Shown: positions 23,375 through 36,606 of the stretch, one piece after another
How positions within the stretch are numbered: position 1 is the first letter of the stretch
How the letters are laid out: each line of letters starts with the position of its first letter
Source: an uncultured Gammaproteobacteria bacterium
GTDB lineage: Bacteria; Patescibacteriota; Patescibacteriia; Magasanikbacterales; UBA922
Assembly (NCBI GenBank): GCA_964433095.1
Contig: CAYSPW010000003.1
Coordinates: 7,034 to 71,033 of the forward strand
Direction of reading: 5' to 3'
Length of the DNA stretch: 64,000 nucleotides
Position numbers and translations under genes: made by a program
Notes under the pieces: generated by a model
Seen by the model: the letters and a program-made list of their open reading frames with translations, nothing else
Databases searched by the model: none
Told to the model about the DNA's origin: nothing

Positions 23375-26209
23375 ATGTCTATTTATTACAAAATATTCGG
23401 TGATCCCAATAAAAAAACGTTGAAAAAGCTGGAACCGTTGGTGGAAAAAATCAATGCCATGGAGAGCGATCTGGAAAAATTGAACGATGAACAATTAAAA
23501 GCCAAAACCGATGAATTCAAGCAAAGAATCAACCAAGGGGAGACTTTGGATGAAATATTGGCCGAAGTTTTTGCCGTAGTCAGAGAAGCGTCCAAGCGCA
23601 CCACCGGCATGCGCCACTATGACGTACAGCTGATTGGCGGCATGGTGCTTCATCATGGTCAAATCGCCGAGATGCGGACCGGTGAAGGTAAGACTTTGGT
23701 GGCAACCTTGCCCGTCTACTTGAATGCTTTGGAAGGAAAAGGTGTGCATGTGGTTACGGTAAACGATTATCTGGCTAAAAGAGACGCGATCTGGATGGGG
23801 CAGATTTATGACTTTTTGGGCCTGAGCGTGGGAATTATACAAAACCAGAGAGTCACGTTTGTTTATGATCCTTTAATATCCGGAGGCGAACAAGGCGAGG
23901 AAACGGACAATCGGCGGGATCAAAAGGGGAGTTTTAAGGTGGAGGAAGATTACCTGCGGCCGGCCGGTCGCAAAGAAGCATACGCGTGCGATATTACATA
24001 CGGCACCAATAATGAATTCGGCTTTGATTATTTACGCGACAATATGGTGCAGGATTTAAAAGAAATGGTCATGCGTCCGGGAGCGGAAACGCACTACGCG
24101 ATTATTGATGAGGTGGATTCAATTTTAATCGATGAAGCGCGTACTCCTTTGATTATTTCCGCTCCTGCCGAAGAGGCCACCGAAAGATATTATCAATTCG
24201 CCAAGTTGGTAAAACGGCTACAGGAGAATGAAGATTACAACGTAGATGAGAAGTTGAGAGCGGCCACTTTGACTGAAAAAGGAATAGCCAAATTTGAGCA
24301 ATGGCTCGATTCGGATAATCTGTATGCCGAGGGCGGCATCAGGATCGTGCATCACATAGAGCAAGCATTGAAAGCCGAAATGCTGTTCAAGCGCGATAAA
24401 GATTACATCGTGGAAAATAACGAAGTGGTAATCATTGATGAGTTTACCGGACGAAAAATGCCGGGCAGAAGGTATTCCGAAGGTTTACATCAGGCCATTG
24501 AGGCCAAAGAAAACGTGCAAATACAAAGAGAATCCAGAACCTTGGCTACCATTACTTTCCAAAATTTATTTCGCATGTATCAAAAAATGGCTGGCATGAC
24601 CGGAACGGCCAAAACCGAAGAAGAAGAATTTATTAAAATTTATAATGCCGAAGTGGTGGTAATTCCCACCAACCGACCGGACGCTCGCATTGATCATCCG
24701 GACAAGATATACAAGTCGGAAAGGGGTAAATACACTGCTATTACTAAAAAGATCAAGCAGTGCCAGGAAAAAGGGCAGCCCGTGTTGGTGGGCACCATTT
24801 CAGTGGAAAAAAATGAACAGCTCAGCGTCCATCTGTCGCGTGAAGGGGTAAAGCACGAAATTTTAAATGCCAAAAATCATGAACGTGAGGGTGAGATTAT
24901 AGCTCAAGCCGGCAGGAAAAAAGCGGTCACATTGGCCACCAATATGGCCGGACGAGGGGTGGATATTAAATTGGGTGGCAGTCCGGTGGAAGAAGAAAAA
25001 GAACAAGAGATTAAAGAGTTGGGCGGACTGTTCGTGCTTGGAACGGAAAGGCATGAATCCAGAAGAATTGACAACCAGCTGCGTGGACGCGCCGCTCGTC
25101 AAGGCGACCCGGGCGAAACCCAATTTTATGTTTCCACGGAAGACGACTTGATGAGAATTTTTGCTGGCGACAGGCTAAAATCAATGATGAACAGGTTGAA
25201 AGTGCCCGAAGACATGCCGATTGAGCAAAAAATGGTTACCAAAATGTTGGAGAGTGCCCAAAAAAAAGTAGAAGGACACCATTTTGACACCAGAAAGCAC
25301 GTGCTGCAATACGACGACGTGCTGAACCGGCACCGCTTTGTGGTCTACAAAAAAAGAAGACAGATCTTGGAGTTGGCGTCCGGACGTAATTATGAAGAAT
25401 ATGGTGGCGAGCTTGATAGGATGGATACCGGACAAAGAGAGTCGCATATTTTGGAGCATTACAATTCTCTCAAAGAAATCATTTTGGATTACATCGTGGA
25501 TGAGATTGAATTTGTGGTCTCTTTTCACACTAATCCGGAAGAAAGAGAAATGGGAGAAGCAGAGAAAAAAGAATGGAATTTGAAAGAAATTTATGAAACC
25601 ACGCGCACGATTTTTCCTTTCACTAATGAAGAAAGAGAAAAATTACTGCACATGACTCCGGGTCTGGACGGCAAGCTGGACGAGGCCAAGGCCAGAGAAG
25701 AAATTATTCAGTTTTTGATTGACAAAGCCAAGACCGAATATGAGAACATTGAAAAAACGGTTGTAACGGGCGAGCGGGAAGTAGAAAAAGGGACAGAGTT
25801 GATGCGGCAGATGGAAAAAGGTATTCTATTGCGTTCAATAGATTCCCTGTGGGTGGATCATCTGGTGGAAATAGATTATTTGCGTACCGGCATCGGATTG
25901 CGCGGCTACGGCCAGCGTGACCCGCTGGTTGAGTACAAACGCGAGACTTATCATATGTTTAACCGTCTTCTTTCCACCATTCAAAAAGAAGTGGTCTATT
26001 CATTTTTCAAAATTGGTGCCGGCCTGCAACTTGCGCCGAGTATTATGTCAAACGATAAAATGACTTTGAAAGGAGCAGCTAAGTCCGCTTCCGAGCAGGG
26101 AACGCGCGTGAAAAAAAAGCCCAGGAACGACTCCGGAGAAAAAGTGGGGCGAAACGATCCTTGCCCATGCGGCAGCGGCAAGAAATACAAAAAATGCTGC
26201 GGCGGATAA
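23375..26209 (+). CDS. secA: Preprotein translocase ATPase SecA
   Basis: Walker A MRTGEGKTLVAT, DEAD-like IIDEVDSILIDEART, MAGRGVDIKLGG; C-terminal zinc finger CPCGSGKKYKKCCG. Confidence 0.95.
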   Translation: MSIYYKIFGDPNKKTLKKLEPLVEKINAMESDLEKLNDEQLKAKTDEFKQRINQGETLDEILAEVFAVVREASKRTTGMRHYDVQLIGGMVLHHGQIAEMRTGEGKTLVATLPVYLNALEGKGVHVVTVNDYLAKRDAIWMGQIYDFLGLSVGIIQNQRVTFVYDPLISGGEQGEETDNRRDQKGSFKVEEDYLRPAGRKEAYACDITYGTNNEFGFDYLRDNMVQDLKEMVMRPGAETHYAIIDEVDSILIDEARTPLIISAPAEEATERYYQFAKLVKRLQENEDYNVDEKLRAATLTEKGIAKFEQWLDSDNLYAEGGIRIVHHIEQALKAEMLFKRDKDYIVENNEVVIIDEFTGRKMPGRRYSEGLHQAIEAKENVQIQRESRTLATITFQNLFRMYQKMAGMTGTAKTEEEEFIKIYNAEVVVIPTNRPDARIDHPDKIYKSERGKYTAITKKIKQCQEKGQPVLVGTISVEKNEQLSVHLSREGVKHEILNAKNHEREGEIIAQAGRKKAVTLATNMAGRGVDIKLGGSPVEEEKEQEIKELGGLFVLGTERHESRRIDNQLRGRAARQGDPGETQFYVSTEDDLMRIFAGDRLKSMMNRLKVPEDMPIEQKMVTKMLESAQKKVEGHHFDTRKHVLQYDDVLNRHRFVVYKKRRQILELASGRNYEEYGGELDRMDTGQRESHILEHYNSLKEIILDYIVDEIEFVVSFHTNPEEREMGEAEKKEWNLKEIYETTRTIFPFTNEEREKLLHMTPGLDGKLDEAKAREEIIQFLIDKAKTEYENIEKTVVTGEREVEKGTELMRQMEKGILLRSIDSLWVDHLVEIDYLRTGIGLRGYGQRDPLVEYKRETYHMFNRLLSTIQKEVVYSFFKIGAGLQLAPSIMSNDKMTLKGAAKSASEQGTRVKKKPRNDSGEKVGRNDPCPCGSGKKYKKCCGG

Positions 26210-27457: not shown

Positions 27458-27919
27458 TTAAAATTCCAAATCCCAAGTATCGGAACCCTCATCACATGTT
27501 AGGGTTATTTTTTTCGGCCAGGTTTGCTTAGGGTACTGTCCATTGTTTTTGTCTAGAAAAATTTCATTTTGTGAGAAGTCACTATTGTCTGTGATTTTTA
27601 TTTTCATGTTTTTTTCAAAAGTGTTGCTGCCTAGTGGTTTTTTAAGACCACCTAAAAAACCACTATTTTGTTGAATATTTTTTATTTCAGTATTGTGTTC
27701 ATCAAGATTAACTGAACACCCGTGCAGATCTTCGCCAATATTTACAAACTCAAGTCCCCATGATTGACGTTTTCCTAACTCCAAAAAAGAGCTATAACTC
27801 ATTTGTACAGAATTGAGGTTGTCGCCAAACTTAGAAAGTTCTGACTTTTTTTTAGATCCGCATCCACTAAGGATTATTATAAATGAAAGCATGGCGGTGA
27901 ATAAAAGTATTTTTTTCAT
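27458..27919 (-). CDS. Lipoprotein (153 aa), AT-rich
   Basis: MKKILLFTAMLSFIIILSGCGS signal peptide with lipobox LSGC. Start moved to ATG at 27919 because the longer ORF extension runs through a terminator hairpin. Confidence 0.5.
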   Translation of the reverse strand: MKKILLFTAMLSFIIILSGCGSKKKSELSKFGDNLNSVQMSYSSFLELGKRQSWGLEFVNIGEDLHGCSVNLDEHNTEIKNIQQNSGFLGGLKKPLGSNTFEKNMKIKITDNSDFSQNEIFLDKNNGQYPKQTWPKKITLTCDEGSDTWDLEF

Positions 27920-27953
27920 ACAAATATATTTAAGAATATTAACTATTATATTT

Positions 27954-27999
27954 AAAAAAGGGCGATTAGTAAAATTAATTAGCAATCGCCCGGGTTTTT
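27954..27999. terminator. Bidirectional rho-independent terminator
   Basis: A6-GGGCGATT-16 nt loop-AATCGCCC-GGGTTTTT; perfect 8-bp stem flanked by an A-run and a T-run; sits between the two minus-strand lipoprotein genes. Confidence 0.45.
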
Positions 28000-28003
28000 C
28001 CAA

Positions 28004-28696
28004 CTACCGGCAGCAGTTGTAGCAAGACTGCCAGGTTTGGTAGGAACAAGAGAGGCCCATAAAGTCTGCCCATAGATCCCCTACGGAGAAGTCGTGGCAG
28101 TACTCGGTCCAGTTCAGGATGTCGCAGATTTCTTTGGCATAGCCAAGCAAGATCGTGCCATAGATCGAGGTACCGCAGTTTCGGCGCAGCTCACAGGACG
28201 CATAGCAGTGATTCAGGGGGTCATAATAGCGCAAAGCTCTTCGCACAACCCTTTGCACACAAACCGGATTTGTCAGGGCCTGTGTGTCCGTGGCCAACTC
28301 ACCGGTTTCTTCGTTGTCCGTTACTTCGAAGCCTTGGATCGGCTCGAACTCCTCCAAGTTGATGTGGGTCCAGCCTTGGAACCGGATGGCTGTGACCGCG
28401 ATGAGGCTTTCACCGATGTAGACTTCGGTATGGACAAAAGCGTCCGGATCCAAAGCTATTTCTTCGCTGAGCTTAAAGGTAAAGATACCCTGCTCACCGG
28501 TGACAGACTCATACTGGTAGTCACTGTTCTGGATTTTCACGGTGGCGCCTTCAATCGGTACGCCGTTGGCTTTGACTTGTCCGGCCACAACGTAGTAGGT
28601 GGACACACCCTCTTCTTCGAGTCCGGTTTCTCCACAGCCGACCAAGAAGCCTACGATGAAGAGTAGCGACAGGATGATTGACACACAGGTTTTCAT
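28004..28696 (-). CDS. Lipoprotein with CarbopepD_reg-like domain and C-terminal Cys-rich domain (GC-rich gene)
   Basis: Signal peptide with lipobox LVGCGE; VAGQVKANGVPIEGATVKIQNSDYQYESVTGEQGIFTF resembles the carboxypeptidase regulatory-like domain; C-terminal 90 aa with about 11 Cys. G+C is visibly much higher than the surrounding sequence. Confidence 0.5.
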   Translation of the reverse strand: MKTCVSIILSLLFIVGFLVGCGETGLEEEGVSTYYVVAGQVKANGVPIEGATVKIQNSDYQYESVTGEQGIFTFKLSEEIALDPDAFVHTEVYIGESLIAVTAIRFQGWTHINLEEFEPIQGFEVTDNEETGELATDTQALTNPVCVQRVVRRALRYYDPLNHCYASCELRRNCGTSIYGTILLGYAKEICDILNWTEYCHDFSVGDLWADFMGLSCSYQTWQSCYNCCR

Positions 28697-28951
28697 TTCT
28701 ACCTCCTCGAGTTGGTGGCCTTTTTACCCACCCTCCCTTTGGGTGAAGCAAGAGGCCTTTTTTAATGAACAAGTTAATTTTAACTTTTTTCAGTTCATGG
28801 AAAATTAAAAAGAATATAAAATTCATATAAATTTTTTCTAATTTAAATTTTTATCCACATAAAATAGTTTTAAAACCAGTCGGAATTTGATAGAATTAGT
28901 TAAAATATGGAAAAAAATTATTGTACAATTTTATCACATGATGAGTTAGTG

Positions 28952-28980
28952 GACCGCTCATAATTGAGTGGTCTTTTTTT
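28952..28980 (+). promoter_or_regulatory. Terminator-like hairpin in the leader of the UPRT-like gene (possible attenuator)
   Basis: GACCGCTCA-taat-TGAGTGGTC (9-bp stem, one G.U) followed by T7, about 55 nt upstream of the start codon. An alternative ATGAG/CTCAT pairing overlaps the 5-prime stem arm. Confidence 0.3.
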
Positions 28981-29037
28981 AAGAGTTCTTTTTTTGAAAA
29001 TATAATCGGAACAAATAAGACATAGAAGGAGGTGGTG

Positions 29038-29937
29038 ATGCAAAAAGTAAGAAGCGGATTGTGGTGTCGCCAGATCGGCGATGCCACTATTCACGTCATG
29101 GAGACGGCAGACAGCCTTAGGCTGGCGGGTAGCCGTCACCTTATCGGGGCTCGCAAGCGCGAGTTGATGAAGAGCGTGGTGGCCGGATTCTTTAAAGAGT
29201 TCGCTCACTTTTTTCGCAGAGCAGTTTTCAGCTGGGTGCTAATCGAGCGCGGCGGGCGATTCGTCGCCCCGACCGTGCTGGAGATGGAAGCCTGGTGGGG
29301 CAAGCGCGGTCCGATTACCCCCATCGAGATGAAACGTGTGCAGGATAAGAGTAAAGAAAGTGGCTGGGGCGGTCGTTTTTTGTGGGGCTTGGGAGATCTA
29401 TTCAAGCGGCCGGAACCTACGTGGGTAGTGGGGGAGACATGCCTGGCGAGCGGCACCACCTTGCATACCCTGGTATCGGTCGCCTGTGACCATGGGCGGC
29501 AGCCGAATCATCTGGTGGTGGTGTGTCCAATTGTCGGCTCTTATGGCCTGCGGCGTCTGTTGGGATTGTGCCAACAGAAGGGAATCAAGTTGACCGTGTT
29601 TACCACCGGCATCTGGTGGGTGAACGAGGAAGGGTATGAATCCACGTTGCCGTATACCGATTTCGTGTTGCGGCGAGGACCGGTTGAAGACGATGACCTC
29701 TACTTTGTAACTCCGGCCAGCGTGACCCGCTACCGCATCAATTACGGTGATAAGCCCGTCTGCGTGGTCGGCGACGCCGGCGACTCCATGGCGGTTGGCG
29801 ATGATGGCAGAGAGGATATGCGCGCCCAGTGCAATTACATGAGGGATACCATTACCGGATTTGAGCGTTTGGGCCTTGATTCGTACCGGCTTTTGTCGGC
29901 CTGGCCGATTGATTTTCTCAAGTCGGCCGTGGCCTAG
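29038..29937 (+). CDS. Uracil phosphoribosyltransferase-family (UPRT-like type I PRTase) protein, GC-rich gene
   Basis: LIERGG (cf. UPRT ILRAG), PRPP-binding loop VVGETCLASGTTL (cf. DPMLATGGS), and C-terminal VVGDAGDSMAVGDDG (cf. UPRT GLGDAGDR); 300 aa with extra N-terminal and internal segments. SD GGAGG 5 nt before the ATG at 29038. Confidence 0.5.
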   Translation: MQKVRSGLWCRQIGDATIHVMETADSLRLAGSRHLIGARKRELMKSVVAGFFKEFAHFFRRAVFSWVLIERGGRFVAPTVLEMEAWWGKRGPITPIEMKRVQDKSKESGWGGRFLWGLGDLFKRPEPTWVVGETCLASGTTLHTLVSVACDHGRQPNHLVVVCPIVGSYGLRRLLGLCQQKGIKLTVFTTGIWWVNEEGYESTLPYTDFVLRRGPVEDDDLYFVTPASVTRYRINYGDKPVCVVGDAGDSMAVGDDGREDMRAQCNYMRDTITGFERLGLDSYRLLSAWPIDFLKSAVA

Positions 29938-29942
29938 TGCTT

Positions 29943-29983
29943 GCCCGCTCATCATTTTGCAAAGTGGATGAGCGGGCTTTTTT
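29943..29983 (+). terminator. Rho-independent terminator
   Basis: Perfect 11-bp stem GCCCGCTCATC / GATGAGCGGGC with a 13-nt loop, followed by TTTTTT. Confidence 0.65.
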
Positions 29984-30011
29984 AATTGTTGTCTATTGTT
30001 TACAAATGGTG

Positions 30012-30040
30012 TTGACTGACAAAAAAATTTCATATACAAT
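30012..30040 (+). promoter_or_regulatory. Sigma70-like promoter for secD (TTGACT-N17-TACAAT)
   Basis: TTGACT 30012-30017, 17-nt spacer, TACAAT 30035-30040; ATG at 30056. Confidence 0.45.
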
Positions 30041-30055
30041 ACTGTCCAGTTTAAT

Positions 30056-32086
30056 ATGGCCAATAAAACTCAACAATCCAATACCCGTTCCAAAGTGCGC
30101 TGGGGCATAGTGGGAGTGCTGGCGCTTTTTTTGATTGCCGGTTTTTTTGACGCTCCAGCTTTGGCAAATAAATTGATAGATTCTGTAAATCAAACCGTAT
30201 CTCTGGGCCTGCCTCGCGTTCCGGAAAAGGATTTTAATCTGGGGCTTGATTTGCAGGGCGGAGCACATCTGATTTACCAGGCCGATATATCAGGGATTGA
30301 GGCGAACGAGCGAGGCGTAGCCGTGGAAGGAGTGCGAGATGTGATTGAAAGGCGAGTAAACGCGATCGGGGTTTCCGAGCCTAATGTTCAGACTACCAAA
30401 GTAAGTGGAGAATACCGCATTATCGTGGAGCTGCCCGGAATTAGTGATACTAATAATGCCATAAACATGATCGGCGAAACTCCAATATTGGAATTCAAAG
30501 AAGAAAATAATCAGCCGCAAAGAGAATTGACCGAGGTGGAAGAGCAAGAAATAGTGCAATACAACATGATGGCCACGCAAAGACTGGGTGAAGCCGTAGA
30601 AAAAATAAAATCCGGAGCGGATTTCGGATCCGTAGTCAGAGAATATTCCGAAGATGAACTGAGTAAAAACAACGGGGGGTATTTGGGATATATTGATAAA
30701 TTTTCACCTTATCCGGCTCTTTTCAGCTGGGCCGAAAATGCGCAAGAGGGGGAGATGGGGGAATTTATTCAGAGCGTGGACGGCATTAATATAGTTAAAA
30801 GAGGTCAAGAGAGAGACGGACAATTACAAGTGGAGTCCAGTCATATTTTGATCTGCTATATAGGAGCTCAGTATTGTGAAGAAGAAAATTTATCCAAAGA
30901 AGAAGCGTTTTTAAAAGCACAATCGATTTTTAATCTAGTGAACGCGGATAATTTCTCCGAATTGGCCGAAGAAAATTCCACCGACGCGGGGTCGGCGGCA
31001 AACGGAGGTTATCTGGGATTTGTAAATAAAGGAATGCTGGTTCCGGAAGTGGACGCGCCTTTGTTTAACGCCGAAGTGGGACAAATAATCGGTCCGATTG
31101 AATCACCGTTTGGCTATCATGTCATATACAAGCAAAGCGAATCCATTGGCAAGGAATATGAAATTTGGAGGTTATTGATCAAAACAAAATCAGCTGAAGA
31201 CATTTTACCCCCGGACGATCCGTGGAAATCAACCGGATTGTCAGGCAAGCAATTAAGCAAAGCCGAAGTGGTTACCGATCCGCAAACCGGAGCAGTGCAG
31301 GTATCGTTAATTTTTGATGGCGAAGGCAAGGATTTGTTCAGGGAAATAACCGAACGTAATTTGAATAAGCCGGTGGCAATCTTTTTGGACGGCGTGCCGA
31401 TCAGTATTCCGACCGTGAACAGTATAATTCCTGACGGCCGGGCCGTAATTCAGGGCAATTTCAACCTCAAGGAAGCGCAGTTGCTGGCACAAAGACTTAA
31501 CGCCGGCGCTCTGCCGGTCCCGGTTGAATTGATCTCTCAACAAAGTGTTGGAGCCAGTTTGGGGGCCGAATCTTTGCAGAAAAGCTTGAAAGCCGGCATC
31601 GCCGGGTTGATCGTGATAATGATTTTTATGCTGATTTATTACCGCTTGCCCGGATTGGTTTCGGTGATAGCTTTGTGTTTATACATTGCTTTGGCCTTGG
31701 CTATTTTCAAATTAATAGGAGTGACTCTCACTTTGGCCGGCATCGCCGGGTTAATACTTTCCATTGGCATGGCCGTGGACGCCAACGTGCTCATATTTGA
31801 GAGATTAAAAGAGGAGTTAAAACAAGGCAAAAGCTTGAGAACCGCGGTTGAGGAAGGCTTTTTGCGAGCTTGGACTTCAATTCGCGACGGTAATATTTCC
31901 ACATTGATTACTTGTGTTTTGTTGATTTGGTTCGGCTCCAGTTTTGTGCAGGGCTTCGCGGTCACTTTGGCGATCGGTATTTTGACTAGCATGTTTTCCG
32001 CCATTACGGTCACCAGAGTGATCTTGCGTTTCGTGGTACCGTGGTTTGGAAGCGGCAAGAGCCGATTGTTTTTGGGATCAAAATAA
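30056..32086 (+). CDS. secD: Protein-export membrane protein SecD with two inserted parvulin (PpiC-type PPIase) domains
   Basis: SecD N-terminal TM and P1 blocks (LGLDLQGGAHLIY, RVNAIGVSEPNV, IIVELPG) and C-terminal TM bundle (LGAESLQKS...GIAG). Between them are two PpiC-like repeats: the first degenerate, the second canonical (SHILI...ANGGYLGFVNKGMLVPEVDAPLF...GPIESPFGYHVIYK). Confidence 0.85.
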   Translation: MANKTQQSNTRSKVRWGIVGVLALFLIAGFFDAPALANKLIDSVNQTVSLGLPRVPEKDFNLGLDLQGGAHLIYQADISGIEANERGVAVEGVRDVIERRVNAIGVSEPNVQTTKVSGEYRIIVELPGISDTNNAINMIGETPILEFKEENNQPQRELTEVEEQEIVQYNMMATQRLGEAVEKIKSGADFGSVVREYSEDELSKNNGGYLGYIDKFSPYPALFSWAENAQEGEMGEFIQSVDGINIVKRGQERDGQLQVESSHILICYIGAQYCEEENLSKEEAFLKAQSIFNLVNADNFSELAEENSTDAGSAANGGYLGFVNKGMLVPEVDAPLFNAEVGQIIGPIESPFGYHVIYKQSESIGKEYEIWRLLIKTKSAEDILPPDDPWKSTGLSGKQLSKAEVVTDPQTGAVQVSLIFDGEGKDLFREITERNLNKPVAIFLDGVPISIPTVNSIIPDGRAVIQGNFNLKEAQLLAQRLNAGALPVPVELISQQSVGASLGAESLQKSLKAGIAGLIVIMIFMLIYYRLPGLVSVIALCLYIALALAIFKLIGVTLTLAGIAGLILSIGMAVDANVLIFERLKEELKQGKSLRTAVEEGFLRAWTSIRDGNISTLITCVLLIWFGSSFVQGFAVTLAIGILTSMFSAITVTRVILRFVVPWFGSGKSRLFLGSK

Positions 32087-32098
32087 CAAAAAATAATT

Positions 32099-33019
32099 AT
32101 GACGATTGACATTATAAAAAACAGAAAGATCAGCTTTGCGGTCTCGGCAATATTGTTTGTGATCAGTTTATTAGTACTGATTGTAGTCGGCCTCAATCCG
32201 GGAATTGATTTTACCGGCGGATCTTTACTTGAGGTGTCTTTTTCAAGCGAGCGGCCTCGGTTGAAAGCGGTCAAACAGACTGTTTCCATGCTTGATTTTG
32301 ATCTGAATTCGCCCGTTATTCAGCCGGTGGATCAAGATTCATATATTTTCAAGACCAGATTCATTACTGAACAAGAACATCAACAAATTTTGTCGATACT
32401 GAGGCAAGATTTTGAAACCGATGATAATAGGGTTTTGGAGGAAAGAGTAGAGACGGTCGGTCCGGCTATAAGCTCGCACTTGAAGTCCAGAGCAATCTAC
32501 GCGGTTGTGGCCGTGGTAATAGCGATTATCGCTTATGTGGCTTACGCTTTTCGCAAAGTGGCCAAACCGATTCAATCTTGGAAATACGGTTTGACCGCTA
32601 TTATAGCGCTGATCCATGACGTTACCATTACCATGGGAGTGTTCGCGCTGTTGGGAAAGTTCGCGGGTGTGGAAATTGACATTCCTTTCGTTGTGGCTTT
32701 GTTGACCATCTTGGGTTATTCGGTCAACGACACCATTGTCGTGTTTGACAGAGTGAGAGAAAATTTGATTAAAAAAGGCTCCAGCCAATTCGCGCAAACG
32801 GTCGCTTTGGGTGTAAATCAGACACTTACTCGTTCTTTTAATACTTCTCTTACCACCTTAATAGTATTGTTCGCTTTGTTTATATTCGGCGGTGCCACCA
32901 TTCATTATTTTTCCCTGGCTTTAATAATCGGCATCATACTGGGTACTTATTCATCCATATTTTTGGCCAGCCCGCTGTTGGTGGTATGGCAGGAGATGAA
33001 ATACAAAAAATTATCTTAA
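32099..33019 (+). CDS. secF: Protein-export membrane protein SecF
   Basis: SecF layout: N-terminal TM, periplasmic domain, C-terminal 5-TM bundle with GIDFTGG and ALIHDVTITMGVFAL blocks; immediately downstream of secD. Confidence 0.85.
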   Translation: MTIDIIKNRKISFAVSAILFVISLLVLIVVGLNPGIDFTGGSLLEVSFSSERPRLKAVKQTVSMLDFDLNSPVIQPVDQDSYIFKTRFITEQEHQQILSILRQDFETDDNRVLEERVETVGPAISSHLKSRAIYAVVAVVIAIIAYVAYAFRKVAKPIQSWKYGLTAIIALIHDVTITMGVFALLGKFAGVEIDIPFVVALLTILGYSVNDTIVVFDRVRENLIKKGSSQFAQTVALGVNQTLTRSFNTSLTTLIVLFALFIFGGATIHYFSLALIIGIILGTYSSIFLASPLLVVWQEMKYKKLS

Positions 33020-33103: not shown

Positions 33104-33265
33104 ATGTCGGATACTTTTATTAGGCATTTGGTTTCTTTTATTGGCACTTTGGTCGCACTGCTGGCATATTTTTCCGGATATATTTCCGGACAGAACGGCT
33201 GGTGGTGGACGGGAATCGGACTGGTGTTTTTGTATGTCATGATATACAAGCTGGTTGAGGTTTAA
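33104..33265 (+). CDS. Possible small membrane protein (53 aa)
   Basis: MSDTFIRHLVSFIGTLVALLAYFSGYISGQNGWWWTGIGLVFLYVMIYKLVEV; two predicted TM helices; stop lies 7 nt before the ATG of the next gene; no clear SD. Confidence 0.25.
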   Translation: MSDTFIRHLVSFIGTLVALLAYFSGYISGQNGWWWTGIGLVFLYVMIYKLVEV

Positions 33266-33272
33266 TAATAAT

Positions 33273-34691
33273 ATGTTGGTTGACTTTGGAATATTCACGT
33301 TCAATCTAAGGCCGTTATTGGAATTTTTTAATCAAACCATCGGCCAAATCGTTATCGGTCTGATAGCAATTTTCGGCTGGCTTTTTTTTGTTTGGCTACT
33401 TATTTTTGCCGCCATTACTTTTTATTTGGAATATCGGCAAAACAAGTATAGCGCGGATTGGAAATGGGTTTTGCTGGCCATCGATATCCCTCCCCTCAAT
33501 GTGCAGACTCCAAAGGCAGTGGAGCAAATGTTTGCGCATTTGGCCGGCGCTTTCAACCAGCCGGATATTGCGGAAAAATTCTATTACGGTTTCAAGCAGC
33601 GGTGGTTTAGTTTTGAAATTATCAGCATAGAAGGATATATACAATTTTTAATCAGGACCGAGGAATCTTTTCGTGATTTGGTTGAAGCTTCGATCTACGC
33701 GCAGTATCCGGAAGCGGAAATTACCGAAGTTGAAGATTATACTGATGACACCCCGGAGCAGTTCCCAAGCGATGACTATGATATTTGGATGGCCGATTTC
33801 GGCACTGAGCAAGATGATTCTTATCCAATTAGGACTTACCAGGATTTTCAAGACAGCATGTCCAAGGATGAGGTTTTAAAAGATCCGATGAGCGCTTTCT
33901 TGGAAAGTTTTTCCAGAATTGGTCCGGGAGAGCAAATGTGGTTTCAGATATTGCTGGAGCCGATTTCCAGTTCATGGAAAGAAAAATCAATAAGAAAAGT
34001 AAAAGAGTTGATTGGCGACAGCGCGGCCGCGGCCGAAGCCGGAAGCAAATTGGCTGATGCGATTACCAGATCTTCACTGAAGGCGATTGAGTCGATCGGC
34101 GATCAGATTTTCGGGCGCGAAGCATCGGCTTCGGCCGGAGGCGAGAGTGACAAACAACCGCCAAACTTGCTTCAGTACTTGACTCCGGGACAATCAAAAT
34201 TGGTGGAGGATATTGAGGAAAAGATCAGCAAGATTGGCTTCAAAGTAAAAATAAGGGCCGCGTATTTGGCTCGCCGTGAGGTTTTTAAAACCGAACGCGG
34301 GGTTAACTTGATAATTGGAGCCATCAATCAATTCAACAAGCCTAATACTAACTCCATAGTACCCACTTACGGAGTCAATGTTTCATATTTTTTTAAAGAT
34401 TCGCGTACCGCTCAAAGAAAGACAATGATGTTGAAAGCATACAAGAAGAGAAAGATGAACGTGGGTGCCAATCCGTTTGTATTGAATATTGAAGAATTAG
34501 CCACCTTATGGCATTTTCCGCTCGCGTATGTAAAAGCGCCGCTGGTGCAAAGAGCACAAGCCAGGCAGACCGAGCCGCCGATCGGGCTGCCGGTTGAAAA
34601 TGTGCCGGCTCCGGACACGGCCGAGAAAGAGGAATCAGAAGATCTTTTTGCCGACGATTTAGGATACAGCGAAGACATGGAATTCGGCTAA
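33273..34691 (+). CDS. Hypothetical N-terminally membrane-anchored protein (about 470 aa)
   Basis: One or two N-terminal TM helices, acidic middle region, no recognisable catalytic motif. ATG at 33273 preferred over the TTG at 33255. Confidence 0.35.
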   Translation: MLVDFGIFTFNLRPLLEFFNQTIGQIVIGLIAIFGWLFFVWLLIFAAITFYLEYRQNKYSADWKWVLLAIDIPPLNVQTPKAVEQMFAHLAGAFNQPDIAEKFYYGFKQRWFSFEIISIEGYIQFLIRTEESFRDLVEASIYAQYPEAEITEVEDYTDDTPEQFPSDDYDIWMADFGTEQDDSYPIRTYQDFQDSMSKDEVLKDPMSAFLESFSRIGPGEQMWFQILLEPISSSWKEKSIRKVKELIGDSAAAAEAGSKLADAITRSSLKAIESIGDQIFGREASASAGGESDKQPPNLLQYLTPGQSKLVEDIEEKISKIGFKVKIRAAYLARREVFKTERGVNLIIGAINQFNKPNTNSIVPTYGVNVSYFFKDSRTAQRKTMMLKAYKKRKMNVGANPFVLNIEELATLWHFPLAYVKAPLVQRAQARQTEPPIGLPVENVPAPDTAEKEESEDLFADDLGYSEDMEFG

Positions 34692-34794: not shown

Positions 34795-36606
34795 ATGTCC
34801 GATACGCAGTTAATAAAAGATAAAATTGATATAGTTGATTTCATATCAGAATATGTACAGCTTAAACCGGCCGGTATTAATCACAAAGCATGTTGTCCTT
34901 TTCACCAAGAAAAGACACCGTCTTTTATGGTAAGTCGCGAGCGACAATCATGGAAGTGTTTCGGCTGCGGTAAGGGCGGAGACATATTTACATTCGTGCA
35001 GGAACTGGAAGGTATGGAGTTCGTGGAAACGCTTAAGTTTTTAGCCGATCGGGCCGGCGTGGAATTGTCTCACCGTGTCAGTGAAATTAATTCCAGTCAG
35101 AAGAACAGAATTAAGGATATCAATGGTGAGGCGTCTCGCTTTTTCCATAATTTCCTGTTCAAGATGCCCGCTGCCGTCGTTGTTTTGCGGTACCTGGAGC
35201 GGCGCGGTTTAAATTATGATTCTATTGCCGAATGGAAAATCGGATTTATACCCGATCAGTGGGATTTGTTAACTAAATATTTGTTGAAAAAGGGATATGG
35301 AATAGACGATTTGGTCGCGAGCGGACTAACCATTCAAAAGCAGGGCACGAATGAGCAAAGCCGGCGTGGGTACTACGATCGATTCCGCGGACGGATAATG
35401 TTTCCCATTTGGGACGTGCACGGCGTTGTATTGGGCTTTACCGGGCGTATATTGGTTGAAAAGGAAAATAGCGGTGGCAAATACATAAACACTCCGCAGA
35501 GCCTGGTCTACGATAAATCCAGAGTGATATTTGGTCTGAATAAAGCCAAACAGGATATTAAAGCCAGGGATTTAATAGTGATGGTCGAAGGTCAAATGGA
35601 TGTCATTTCGTCTTTCCAGGCCGGAGTAAAAAATACGGTCGCGTCGAGCGGCACGGCATTAACGCAAATGCAAATTAAGCTGCTCAAGCGCTATTCAAAA
35701 AATATAAACATGGCTTTTGACAGCGATGAGGCGGGAATTAAAGCGGCGCGCAGAGGAATTGAAACGGCTCTGAAAGAAGGTATGAACGTGAAAGTTATTC
35801 AAATTCCGCCGGAAGCAGGCAAGGATCCGGATGATTGCATCAGACAGGATCCGGCTACGTGGATAAAGGCGGTCAAGAGTGCTAAAGAAGTAATGGAATG
35901 GTATTTTGAAATGGCCTTCAGCGGTAGAGAGGTGTCCAATCCCAAGCACAAACAAATGATTGCCGATGAACTGTTGCCCGAGATAGATAATATCGCTTAC
36001 GCGGTGGAAAAAGACCATTGGCTGCGCGAATTATCTTATCGGCTCGCTGTGGAGTCGGATATATTGCGTCAAGACCTGACGCGTTTGCGCAAGCTGCGTC
36101 ATAAAAAGCTTGATCGTTTACACGCGCGAATTTCACCTCAAGAAGATGAAAAAAAAAGTGAACTGGCGGAAAAAGACAGACTGCATTTGTTGACAGAAAA
36201 ATTATTGGCGTTGTGGTTGAAATTTCCCGGCTTGATGAACAAGTATTTTATTCGCGCCGATGAGCAGGCTTTATCCACAACCGTCTTCGCGCCTCTTTAC
36301 GAATTGATCAAACAAGAGTATAATGACAGCAAAGCAATAGATATAGAGCTGCTTCGGGCCCGTTTCAGTGACGGGCAACATGAAGAGAATATAGTGGACA
36401 GCCTTCTCATGAAAAGCGAGTGGGTTATTACTGTTATTTCCGAGGAACAAGCCGAGGAGGAAATTGTCAGTTTAGTTGACAGTGTAAATAAAGAATGGAA
36501 GAAAAAAGTTAGATCCAAATTGCAGCGCCAAATCGAAGAGGCCGAAAAACAAGGAGATAATAAGCGTATTGAACAACTTTTGCATGAGTTTAATCAGTTG
36601 AATTAA
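34795..36606 (+). CDS. dnaG: DNA primase DnaG
   Basis: Zinc-binding CCPFHQEKTPSF...CFGCGKGGD; TOPRIM domain (VEGQMDVIS, DSDEAG). Confidence 0.9.
   Translation: MSDTQLIKDKIDIVDFISEYVQLKPAGINHKACCPFHQEKTPSFMVSRERQSWKCFGCGKGGDIFTFVQELEGMEFVETLKFLADRAGVELSHRVSEINSSQKNRIKDINGEASRFFHNFLFKMPAAVVVLRYLERRGLNYDSIAEWKIGFIPDQWDLLTKYLLKKGYGIDDLVASGLTIQKQGTNEQSRRGYYDRFRGRIMFPIWDVHGVVLGFTGRILVEKENSGGKYINTPQSLVYDKSRVIFGLNKAKQDIKARDLIVMVEGQMDVISSFQAGVKNTVASSGTALTQMQIKLLKRYSKNINMAFDSDEAGIKAARRGIETALKEGMNVKVIQIPPEAGKDPDDCIRQDPATWIKAVKSAKEVMEWYFEMAFSGREVSNPKHKQMIADELLPEIDNIAYAVEKDHWLRELSYRLAVESDILRQDLTRLRKLRHKKLDRLHARISPQEDEKKSELAEKDRLHLLTEKLLALWLKFPGLMNKYFIRADEQALSTTVFAPLYELIKQEYNDSKAIDIELLRARFSDGQHEENIVDSLLMKSEWVITVISEEQAEEEIVSLVDSVNKEWKKKVRSKLQRQIEEAEKQGDNKRIEQLLHEFNQLN

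What the first reader, a model, noticed from the sequence alone, without database searches (positions are those of the whole stretch)
30500..31160. SecD with two parvulin (PpiC) foldase domains embedded in its periplasmic head
The SecD P1 head-domain N-terminal blocks and the C-terminal 6-TM bundle are intact. Between them lie about 210 extra residues forming two tandem PpiC-type repeats. The second has the full parvulin signature (SHILI...ANGGYLGFVNKGMLVPE...GPIESPFGYHVIYK); the first retains GGYLGYIDK...EMGEFIQ but lacks the catalytic His. SecDF pulls substrates out of the SecYEG channel using its mobile head. PrsA-type parvulin foldases are separate lipoproteins that act on the same emerging chains in Gram-positives. 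A covalent SecD-parvulin fusion would place a foldase directly on the head domain.
Basis: partly seen in the sequence, partly recalled or inferred. Interest (0 to 1): 0.6.

Follow-up and report, generated by a model that had tools for sequence, protein, structure and literature searches.

The report
SecD translocon subunit with built-in foldase
This candidate-phyla-radiation bacterium, like many of its relatives, has two parvulin-type protein-folding domains built into the outward-facing part of the SecD secretion motor, which suggests that pulling a protein out of the membrane channel and helping it fold are physically joined there.

Summary
ORF 30056-32086 (676 aa) is a full SecD (TIGR01129 391 bits, cutoff 244). 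It carries about 230 extra residues (149-378) where Thermus SecDF has 28, between the N-terminal part of the P1 base and the P1 head. The insert scores as two PpiC/parvulin domains (Rotamase_3 E 1e-31).

It is not an assembly artefact. 74 of the 80 best-matching species-representative genomes carry the same uninterrupted architecture followed by a separate secF.

The trait is widespread in Patescibacteria (CPR). One, two or three to four parvulin units sit at the same site in Veblen-/Kerfeld-, Magasanik-/Falkow-/Uhr- and Peregrini-/Gracilibacteria. All are annotated simply "SecD" or "SecF". I found no paper describing this.

A refinement: the domains appear nested rather than simply tandem. 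The outer domain is a circularly permuted parvulin that has lost both histidines. The strand at 366-377 seems to complete it. The inner domain (258-360) is canonical, with H263, D310 and H355 conserved.

The most likely function is a PrsA/SurA-like foldase or chaperone fixed to the moving part of SecDF. Activity is inferred, not shown.

Verdict: a new variant of a known kind, of moderate to high interest.

The parts
30012..30040 (+). Promoter-like site TTGACT-17-TACAAT, 15 nt upstream of the secD ATG
   Evidence: 10 of 12 matches. This is a consensus match only.
30056..32086 (+). secD gene, 676 aa, including the stop codon
   Evidence: One search gives the ORF. TIGR01129 secD scores 391 bits against a cutoff of 244.4; a 100%-identical protein P0001 exists in NCBI.
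30098..30151 (+). N-terminal transmembrane helix of SecD (about residues 15-32). It places everything up to about residue 500 outside the cytoplasm.
   Evidence: Hydrophobic stretch WGIVGVLALFLIAGFF. The AF2 model has a helix at 2-32. The topology follows that of solved SecDF structures.
30326..30508 (+). N-terminal part of the P1 base (Pfam SecD_1st, residues 91-151)
   Evidence: E 1.9e-18; residues 54-148 align to Thermus SecDF 26-116.
30533..30811 (+). Outer parvulin domain, main body (residues about 160-252). It runs from helix alpha1 to strand beta4, has no N-terminal beta1, and has N245 in place of the second catalytic His.
   Evidence: Rotamase 45 bits, profile positions 16-95; the secondary structure has no strand before helix 160-185; position 245 is N in 33 of 39 sequences.
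30827..31135 (+). Inner, canonical parvulin PPIase domain (residues 258-360). Codons: H263 at 30842-30844, Cys pair C267/C274 at 30854-30856 and 30875-30877, D310 at 30983-30985, H355 at 31118-31120.
   Evidence: Rotamase_3 77.5 bits, full length. H263 39/39, H355 39/39, D310 38/39, C267 and C274 39/39. S. aureus PrsA PPIase 2JZV superposes with TM 0.83 and rmsd 2.8 A over 106 columns.
31151..31186 (+). Strand KEYEIWRLLIKT (residues 366-377). Proposed to be the displaced beta1 strand that completes the outer, permuted parvulin domain, with R372 in place of the first catalytic His.
   Evidence: It is positionally homologous to the KEVxASHILxK strand that follows FGYHII in single-domain relatives. 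The Pfam re-permutation test on those relatives supports the strand's role there. AF2 gives continuous strands 243-266 and 353-376 at pLDDT of about 90 or more. For the window itself this assignment is inferred.
31232..31519 (+). P1 head subdomain (Pfam SecDF_P1_head, residues 393-488)
   Evidence: E 9.4e-26, profile positions 19-114. One search gives the alignment to Thermus SecDF from residue 145 onward.
31523..32032 (+). Five-helix membrane bundle of SecD (SecD_SecF_C, residues 490-659), including the conserved AVDANV aspartate D575
   Evidence: gmavdanvlifer aligns with Thermus gaavdgnvlsfer. D575 is invariant.
32099..33019 (+). secF, a separate gene 12 nt downstream of secD
   Evidence: TIGR00966 scores 292.6 bits against a cutoff of 160.

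Best explanation
The gene encodes a working SecD whose extracytoplasmic P1 domain carries a two-parvulin module at the junction between P1 base and P1 head.

Architecture:
- The outer parvulin is circularly permuted. It starts with helix alpha1 and is closed by a strand that comes after the inner domain. Its chain ends therefore lie side by side, which lets it sit in the SecD loop. It has lost both catalytic histidines (N245, R372).
- The inner parvulin is canonical. It is nested in the outer domain's beta4-to-beta1 connection and keeps the full catalytic set.

Proposed function: the module acts as a built-in PrsA/SurA/PpiD-type foldase and chaperone. As SecDF uses the proton gradient to swing its head and pull a secreted chain out of SecYEG, the chain is presented to a tethered prolyl isomerase and peptide-binding surface at the channel exit.

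Shown: the architecture, its position, conservation of the catalytic residues, intact SecD/SecF motor residues, and wide conservation in CPR bacteria.

Inferred: the nested strand pairing in this particular protein, PPIase activity, and action on emerging Sec substrates.
For: SecD identity and intact partner:
- Searches identify SecD and SecF.
- The essential membrane aspartate is conserved.

Insert is parvulin:
-.
- My own HMMs cross-hit between the two repeats.

Position:
- about 230 aa replace Thermus residues 117-144.
- the same site is used in all insert-bearing representatives, whereas canonical SecDs have 6-40 aa there.

Catalytic set of the inner domain:
- H263 and H355 are 39/39 and D310 is 38/39.
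- The domain superposes on the PrsA PPIase with TM 0.83.

Permutation:
- Single-domain relatives have ...FGYHII...loop...ASHIL... before the head.
- Moving that strand to the front extends the Pfam match to profile position 1 and raises the Rotamase_3 score by 4.4-7.4 bits (Rotamase by 3.5-5.5) in 3 of 3 cases.
- The AF2 model of P0127 shows no strand before alpha1 and a beta4-beta1' hairpin at pLDDT 90-96.
- Both His are conserved in that family, 41/41 and 39/41.

Nesting in the window protein:
- AF2 gives two unbroken 24-residue strands, 243-266 and 353-376, with matching register.

Not an artefact, and widespread:
- All of the top 120 hits share the architecture.
- 426 relatives among species-representative genomes were confirmed by tblastn (E <= 1e-3). 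The best 80 are all CPR-type MAGs, and 74 of these 80 have the full architecture in one frame plus a separate secF.
- Peregrini-/Gracilibacteria have SecDF fusions carrying the insert.
- Veblen-/Kerfeldbacteria have single-domain forms.

Functional precedent:
- SurA parvulin domains are modelled on the SecDF P1 head, and SurA binds the holotranslocon (PMC9987972).
- PrsA-like Mpn444 has measured PPIase activity and cross-links to SecDF.
- The P1-head cavity contacts precursors (PMC5974789).
Against: - No activity data exist for any of these proteins.
- In SurA and PpiD, PPIase activity is dispensable or absent, so catalytic residues alone do not prove that isomerisation is the selected function.
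- The AF2 domain arrangement relative to head and base is uncertain (pTM 0.39), so I cannot say that the active site faces the SecYEG exit.
- Moving strand 366-377 to the front of the window's outer domain does not improve its Pfam score (45.2 bits either way). Its assignment therefore rests on positional homology and the model.
- I could not obtain model coordinates to verify the strand pairing.
- I could not test whether these genomes lack a free prsA-like gene. None occurs in the 64-kb window or within 4 kb of secD in 80 loci.
Confidence: 0.65

Rival explanations
1. The module is a holdase or docking platform whose prolyl-isomerase chemistry is irrelevant. It would bind unfolded chains or a partner protein, as SurA P1 or the inactive PpiD parvulin domain do, and merely enlarge the substrate-binding surface of the P1 head.
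For: The outer domain has lost both histidines. Some single-domain relatives have lost both as well (P0135, P0147, P0157, P0170, P0172). So the insert is kept in some lineages without the catalytic pair. From established knowledge, SurA and PpiD function does not need PPIase activity.
Against: The inner domain's H263, H355 and D310 are conserved in 38-39 of 39 sequences at 60-70% overall identity. Both His are also conserved in the single-domain family. This argues for selection on the active site.
Confidence: 0.2
2. The module is mainly mechanical or regulatory. It would be a rigid arm at the base-head hinge that alters or gates the swing of the P1 head, or that spans the envelope of these wall-bearing ultra-small cells, with no direct role in folding.
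For: The insert sits exactly at the connection about which the head rotates. AF2 predicts a long two-stranded ribbon joining the two domains. The number of units varies from 1 to 4 between lineages, as would be expected of a spacer.
Against: A spacer would not need a conserved parvulin active site. No evidence links length to envelope type. This reading does not exclude a foldase role.
Confidence: 0.1
3. The fusion is an assembly or gene-calling artefact that joins a ppiC/prsA gene to secD.
For: None was found. The idea is raised only because the source is a metagenome-type genome.
Against: The parvulin module lies inside SecD, between two SecD domains in one frame. 74 of 80 independent species-representative assemblies share the same uninterrupted order. 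More than 120 distinct proteins at 60-70% identity have the same length and domains.
Confidence: 0.01

Closest known systems
Canonical SecD/SecDF (Thermus thermophilus SecDF, PDB 3AQP/5YHF; Deinococcus SecDF 5XAN)
   Same: N-terminal helix, P1 base, P1 head and the membrane bundle with its essential aspartate are shared, and a partner SecF is present. phmmer gives E 1.4e-81 to 3AQP, and these structures are the top Foldseek hits.
   Different: About 230 residues forming two parvulin domains replace a 28-residue connection between P1 base and P1 head.
PrsA, the lipoprotein foldase of Firmicutes (e.g. S. aureus PrsA PPIase, PDB 2JZV; B. subtilis 1ZK6/4WO7)
   Same: Both are extracytoplasmic parvulin domains of the non-Pin1 type (His...Asp...FGYH). 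The identity is 35% and the TM-score 0.83 to the inner domain. Both presumably have Sec-exported proteins as clients.
   Different: PrsA is a separate lipid-anchored dimer with an N/C-terminal chaperone domain. Here there is no lipobox and no NC domain, and the parvulin is covalently inside SecD. The NCBIfam PrsA models score far below their cutoffs (72 against 343).
SurA of Gram-negative bacteria (PDB 1M5Y)
   Same: Two consecutive parvulin domains, the first inactive and the second active. A single phmmer stretch aligns residues 178-358 with SurA 180-359 (E 1.3e-16). SurA's parvulin domains are modelled on the SecDF P1 head and SurA binds the holotranslocon (PMC9987972).
   Different: SurA is a soluble periplasmic protein with an N/C-terminal core that carries most of the chaperone function, and it serves outer-membrane proteins. 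The NCBIfam SurA model scores 57 against a cutoff of 394. The domains here are nested and permuted and are part of SecD.
PpiD-YfgM at SecYEG (PDB 8ZHT) and the Mycoplasma Mdp/Mpn444 'dome' on SecDF
   Same: Both are membrane-tethered parvulin-containing chaperones positioned at the translocon exit. Mpn444 cross-links to SecDF and has measured PPIase activity. 8ZHT is a Foldseek hit.
   Different: Those are separate proteins that assemble non-covalently. Here the tether is the SecD polypeptide itself.

Membership tests
SecD (protein translocase subunit, RND-type) | Match to the curated SecD equivalog model above its cutoff | tested here: met
   TIGR01129 scores 391.1 bits against a cutoff of 244.4, covering profile positions 1-397.
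SecD (protein translocase subunit, RND-type) | N-terminal helix, large external P1 domain with base and head, C-terminal membrane bundle with the conserved TM4 aspartate, and a SecF partner | tested here: met
   Pfam SecD_1st, SecDF_P1_head and SecD_SecF_C are all present. D575 aligns with the Thermus AVDGN aspartate. secF follows 12 nt downstream.
SecD (protein translocase subunit, RND-type) | Proton-driven enhancement of protein export | not testable with these tools
Parvulin / PpiC-type PPIase: inner domain (258-360) | Full-length match to Pfam Rotamase models above the gathering score | tested here: met
   Rotamase_3 scores 77.5 bits and Rotamase 68.3 bits (gathering scores 22.5 and 21.7), with the Rotamase match covering profile positions 1-95.
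Parvulin / PpiC-type PPIase: inner domain (258-360) | Catalytic residues equivalent to Pin1 H59, C113 (Asp in most parvulins) and H157 | tested here: met
   H263, D310 and H355 are conserved in 39/39, 38/39 and 39/39 sequences. The mapping to Pin1 numbering is my own reading of the motifs SHILI, STDAGS and FGYHV.
Parvulin / PpiC-type PPIase: inner domain (258-360) | Measured cis-trans isomerase activity | not testable with these tools
Parvulin / PpiC-type PPIase: outer domain (160-252 plus 366-377) | Match to Pfam Rotamase above the gathering score | tested here: met
   45.1 bits against 21.7, but covering only profile positions 16-95.
Parvulin / PpiC-type PPIase: outer domain (160-252 plus 366-377) | The two catalytic histidines | tested here: not met
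   The two positions are N245 (N in 33/39) and R372 (R in 35/39).
Parvulin / PpiC-type PPIase: outer domain (160-252 plus 366-377) | Canonical strand order beta1-alpha-...-beta4 | tested here: not met
   No strand precedes alpha1. In single-domain relatives the beta1 strand follows beta4. For the window itself the displaced strand is inferred.
PrsA foldase lipoprotein | Curated PrsA model above cutoff; lipoprotein signal; N/C-terminal chaperone domain flanking the parvulin | tested here: not met
   NF002827 scores 71.9 against a cutoff of 343, and NF002846 scores 50.3 against 361. Both match the parvulin part only. The flanks are SecD domains.
SurA | Curated SurA model above cutoff; N-terminal and C-terminal core domain | tested here: not met
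   NF008038 scores 57.4 against a cutoff of 394, and only SurA's two parvulin domains are matched (positions 195-379 of 431).

The most novel reading that the evidence does not exclude
CPR bacteria have turned SecDF into a combined translocation-and-folding machine. A circularly permuted parvulin evolved as an insertion cassette at the hinge of the P1 head. It was then expanded by nesting further parvulins (1 to 4 units). It replaces free PrsA/SurA/PpiD-type chaperones in these minimal genomes. The proton-driven swing of the head would then mechanically hand each emerging segment to a prolyl isomerase. On this reading the fusion is genetic ('Rosetta stone') evidence that the parvulin chaperone-SecDF head contact proposed in E. 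coli and Mycoplasma is ancient and functional.
Probability: 0.3. Interest if true: 0.75.

Novelty: new variant of a known kind. Interest (0 to 1): 0.6.

Why it matters
How proteins leaving SecYEG are handed to folding helpers is an open question. Recent low-resolution EM, cross-linking and AlphaFold work proposes that parvulin chaperones dock on the SecDF head: SurA in E. coli and PrsA-like lipoproteins in Mycoplasma.

A natural, widely conserved covalent fusion of parvulin domains into the SecD P1 domain gives independent evolutionary support for that coupling. It also offers a simple single-polypeptide system for testing it by structure determination, PPIase assays and chimeras.

It adds a clear example of a circularly permuted parvulin used as an insertion module. 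It suggests how genome-reduced CPR bacteria economise on envelope chaperones. It also shows that thousands of database entries named only "SecD" hide an extra enzymatic module.

Tried and rejected
- **Assembly artefact or frameshift:** rejected.
- **Rfam:** a scan of the whole window and a permissive scan of 28600-30100 found nothing meaningful.
- **The look-up of encoding contigs for P0001:** not on record.
- **The search for related loci with a 19-sequence diverse alignment (A3):** failed for lack of a conserved stretch. A 5-sequence alignment (A4) worked.
- **The listing of cluster members for taxon names:** almost no names returned. Taxonomy was taken instead.
- **afdb50 fold search:** library unavailable.
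- **Foldseek on the single-domain model:** no parvulin structure appeared in the top 50, so it could not be compared with the 2JZV hit of the two-domain model.
- **Moving strand 366-377 in front of the window's outer domain:** the Pfam score did not change. The strand is too diverged to score.
- **tblastn matches longer than the query in some loci** (for example L004, L022): I suspected an extra insertion. They are only cross-matches of the query's parvulin to the first domain.
- **Residue boundaries of P1 head and base:** the original SecDF structure papers are not held. I used Pfam domain limits and the 3AQP alignment instead.
- **Simple tandem arrangement of two permuted units:** considered less likely. 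AF2 shows no turn between 250 and 258 or between 360 and 367, and both histidines of one active site (263, 355) are invariant while 245 and 372 are both non-His.
Full report
**1. What is in the window**

Positions 30056-32086 (+) form one open reading frame of 676 codons. The product matches the curated SecD model over its whole length: TIGR01129 scores 391 bits against a cutoff of 244.

Pfam divides the protein as follows:
- SecD_1st, the N-terminal part of P1: residues 91-151.
- Two PpiC-type rotamase stretches: Rotamase_3 E 1.1e-31, Rotamase E 3.7e-30.
- SecDF_P1_head: residues 393-488.
- SecD_SecF_C membrane bundle: residues 490-659.

secF is a separate gene 12 nt downstream, at 32099-33019 (TIGR00966, 293 bits).

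Upstream, by my reading, there is a hairpin followed by a T-run at 29943-29983. A promoter-like TTGACT-17-TACAAT lies at 30012-30040. secA lies 4 kb upstream and dnaG downstream.

**2. Checking the observation**

I scanned the two repeats separately.
- The first (about residues 171-250) is a significant but partial parvulin. It scores 45 bits, and its match begins at Rotamase profile position 16.
- The second (about 258-360) is a full-length parvulin scoring 68-77 bits.
- HMMs that I built from each repeat hit the other repeat, so the two are homologous.

Against the Thermus SecDF structure 3AQP, residues 54-148 align to 26-116 and residues 379-658 align to 145-423. About 230 residues therefore stand where Thermus has 28.

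The insertion point is the connection between the N-terminal part of the P1 base and the P1 head. It is not inside the head. In canonical SecDs among the representatives, that gap is 6-40 residues.

**3. Not an artefact, and not unique**

The 120 best database matches are all 648-716 aa, carry the same Pfam set and are 60-70% identical. Those with names are called "protein translocase subunit SecD" from Candidatus Magasanikbacteria or Patescibacteria.

A scan of one genome per species gave 426 tblastn-confirmed relatives (E <= 1e-3) of the parvulin-plus-head segment. The best 80 are all CPR-type genomes: Magasanik-, Falkow-, Uhr-, Doudna-, Nomura- and Parcubacteria labels, plus contigs titled "uncultured Gammaproteobacteria" that are probably placeholder names.

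Of these 80 loci, 74 show base-parvulin1-parvulin2-head-membrane bundle in one frame, followed by a separate SecF frame. No free parvulin gene lies within 4 kb. No other parvulin is encoded in the 64-kb window.

**4. Breadth and variation**

I searched all 1.84 billion cluster representatives and typed the best 150 with my own HMMs. The same insertion site holds different numbers of parvulin units.

| Units at the site | Protein size | Lineages |
|---|---|---|
| one | about 555-620 aa | Veblen- and Kerfeldbacteria and other Patescibacteria |
| two | about 655-705 aa | this protein's group |
| two, in fused SecDF proteins | 1015-1120 aa | Peregrinibacteria/Gracilibacteria |
| three or four | 775-940 aa | no taxon names obtained |

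All named hits are CPR/Patescibacteria. I could not establish whether any non-CPR lineage has the insert, because the afdb50 library was unavailable.

**5. A topological refinement**

In the single-unit proteins the order is alpha1 ... GGDLG ... FGYHII, then a loop, then xxASHILxK, then the head. The histidine-bearing strand that normally opens a parvulin comes last, so the domain is circularly permuted. Three results support this.

*Pfam re-permutation test.* In native order the Pfam match starts at profile position 8-13. Moving the last strand to the front extends the match to position 1 and raises the score in all three proteins tried.

| Protein | Rotamase_3, native order | Rotamase_3, strand moved to front |
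|---|---|---|
| 1 | 101.5 | 108.9 |
| 2 | 92.1 | 96.5 |
| 3 | 99.2 | 105.8 |

*AF2 model of P0127.* The insert has pLDDT 93-96. There is no strand before alpha1. A beta4 (254-265), loop, beta1' (271-281) hairpin is predicted.

*Conservation.* Both histidines are conserved in that family: 41/41 and 39/41.

Among the single-unit representatives, the two histidines are mostly kept or lost together: nine have both, five have neither and two are mixed.

In the window's protein, strand 366-377 (KEYEIWRLLIKT) occupies the position of that displaced strand directly before the head, with R372 where the His would be. The outer domain's beta4 (GINIVKRG; family consensus GYNILKRG) has N245 in place of the other His.

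The AF2 model of the window protein has mean pLDDT 81 and about 90 in the insert. It shows two unbroken 24-residue strands, 243-266 and 353-376, whose residue numbers would pair with a constant sum of 619. I read this as a two-stranded ribbon: the outer domain's beta4 runs on into the inner domain's beta1, and the inner beta4 runs on into the outer domain's closing strand.

The inner domain then superposes as a complete canonical parvulin on S. aureus PrsA PPIase, with TM 0.83 and rmsd 2.8 A over 106 columns.

The arrangement is therefore best described as nested: SecD P1 contains a permuted parvulin, which contains a canonical parvulin. For the window itself this is inference. Moving strand 366-377 does not change the Pfam score, and I could not read the model coordinates.

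**6. Catalytic status**

The inner domain keeps H263, D310 and H355 in 39/39, 38/39 and 39/39 relatives. It also keeps the usual GG-LG and M/F pocket motifs. By my reading of the motifs, the three residues correspond to Pin1 H59, C113 and H157.

It also has an invariant Cys pair, C267 and C274, in the beta1-alpha1 loop. Peregrinibacteria-type proteins lack this pair. A disulfide is plausible outside the cell but was not tested.

The outer domain lacks both histidines. However, an Arg at one of these positions also occurs in Mycoplasma Mpn444, which has measured PPIase activity. I therefore call the outer domain "probably inactive" rather than dead.

The SecD membrane aspartate is conserved: D575, aligned to the Thermus AVDGN motif.

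**7. How it most likely works**

Separate parvulin chaperones are known or proposed to work at the same place:
- SurA binds the holotranslocon, and its two parvulin domains are modelled on the SecDF P1 head (PMC9987972).
- PpiD-YfgM sits on SecYEG (PMC9643414).
- Mycoplasma PrsA-like lipoproteins form a dome on SecDF, with density assigned to putative substrate contacting the PPIase domain predicted to be active.

The simplest reading of the CPR fusion is that the same partnership has been made covalent: a PrsA/SurA-type foldase and chaperone fixed at the hinge of the moving head.

The architecture, position and conservation are shown. Catalysis, client contact and the orientation relative to SecYEG are inferred (pTM is only 0.39).

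Three rivals were considered:
- A holdase-only role. Some lineages keep the insert without the histidines.
- A mechanical or regulatory arm at the hinge.
- An artefact, which is excluded.

**8. Comparison with known families**

The protein is a member of SecD, with all tested features met. Its inner domain is a member of the parvulin family by sequence and catalytic residues.

It is not a PrsA or a SurA. The curated models score far below their cutoffs, and the defining chaperone core domains and lipobox are absent.

It resembles SurA in having an inactive parvulin followed by an active one. A single phmmer stretch aligns residues 178-358 with SurA 180-359.

**9. Novelty**

Seven full-text searches turned up no description of a SecD-parvulin fusion or of a permuted parvulin. 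Five were aimed at this question and two at SecDF structure papers. The library lacks most subscription journals.

The sequences are public, and their precomputed Pfam hits already include the rotamase families. The architecture is therefore visible in databases, but it is annotated only as SecD or SecF.

I class it as a new variant of a known kind. Its interest is moderate to high for the secretion field, because it is a natural fusion that bears on a currently debated interaction.

Noticed in passing
window 28000-30000: A GC-rich island: GC is 0.53-0.58 against 0.37-0.45 on either side, with strong positive GC skew from about 28750. It holds ORF 28004-28696 (-), which has a lipoprotein-like signal and a Cys-rich C-terminus, and ORF 29032-29937 (+), 301 aa with a GTG start. 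Neither has a Pfam or NCBIfam hit (29032-29937 was scanned against both; 28004-28696 only against NCBIfam). There is no Rfam hit. It may be foreign DNA.
   Followed up: partly
window 29943-29983: An 11-bp GC-rich hairpin (GCCCGCTCATC...GATGAGCGGGC) followed by TTTTTT, directly after the stop of ORF 29032-29937 and before the secD promoter-like site. The terminator scan missed it because the loop is 13 nt. I read it.
   Followed up: no
window 23375-26209 and 34795-36606: secA lies 4 kb upstream of secD and dnaG lies downstream. Two lipoprotein-like ORFs on the minus strand (27458-28003, 28004-28696) separate secA from secD.
   Followed up: no
window 30854-30856 and 30875-30877 (C267, C274): An invariant Cys pair (CxxxxxxC) in the beta1-alpha1 loop of the inner parvulin in all 39 Magasanikbacteria-type proteins. 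It is absent from the Peregrinibacteria-type inserts. It may be an extracytoplasmic disulfide.
   Followed up: partly
proteins P0164 and P0177: These SecD representatives have two long hydrophobic, membrane-helix-like stretches inside the external P1 region, after the first head strand. That would change the topology if they are real.
   Followed up: no
proteins P0174, P0176, P0180-P0182, P0190, P0227, P0231, P0233, P0239, P0261: SecDs of 775-1119 aa with inserts of 335-472 residues at the same site. By eye, each insert contains three or four parvulin-like units. Their taxonomy was not determined.
   Followed up: partly
loci L005, L010, L014, L016-L018, L025 and others: Many contigs carrying this CPR-type SecD are titled 'uncultured Gammaproteobacteria bacterium'. 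This is probably a placeholder or a mislabel in those third-party assemblies.
   Followed up: no
L002 and L003 (contig JAAZJX010000069.1): The same secD stretch is reported at both ends of one 58.6-kb contig in opposite orientation. This suggests an inverted terminal duplication introduced during assembly.
   Followed up: no
window 33255-34691: A 478-aa ORF directly after secF, with an N-terminal hydrophobic segment and no Pfam or NCBIfam match.
   Followed up: no
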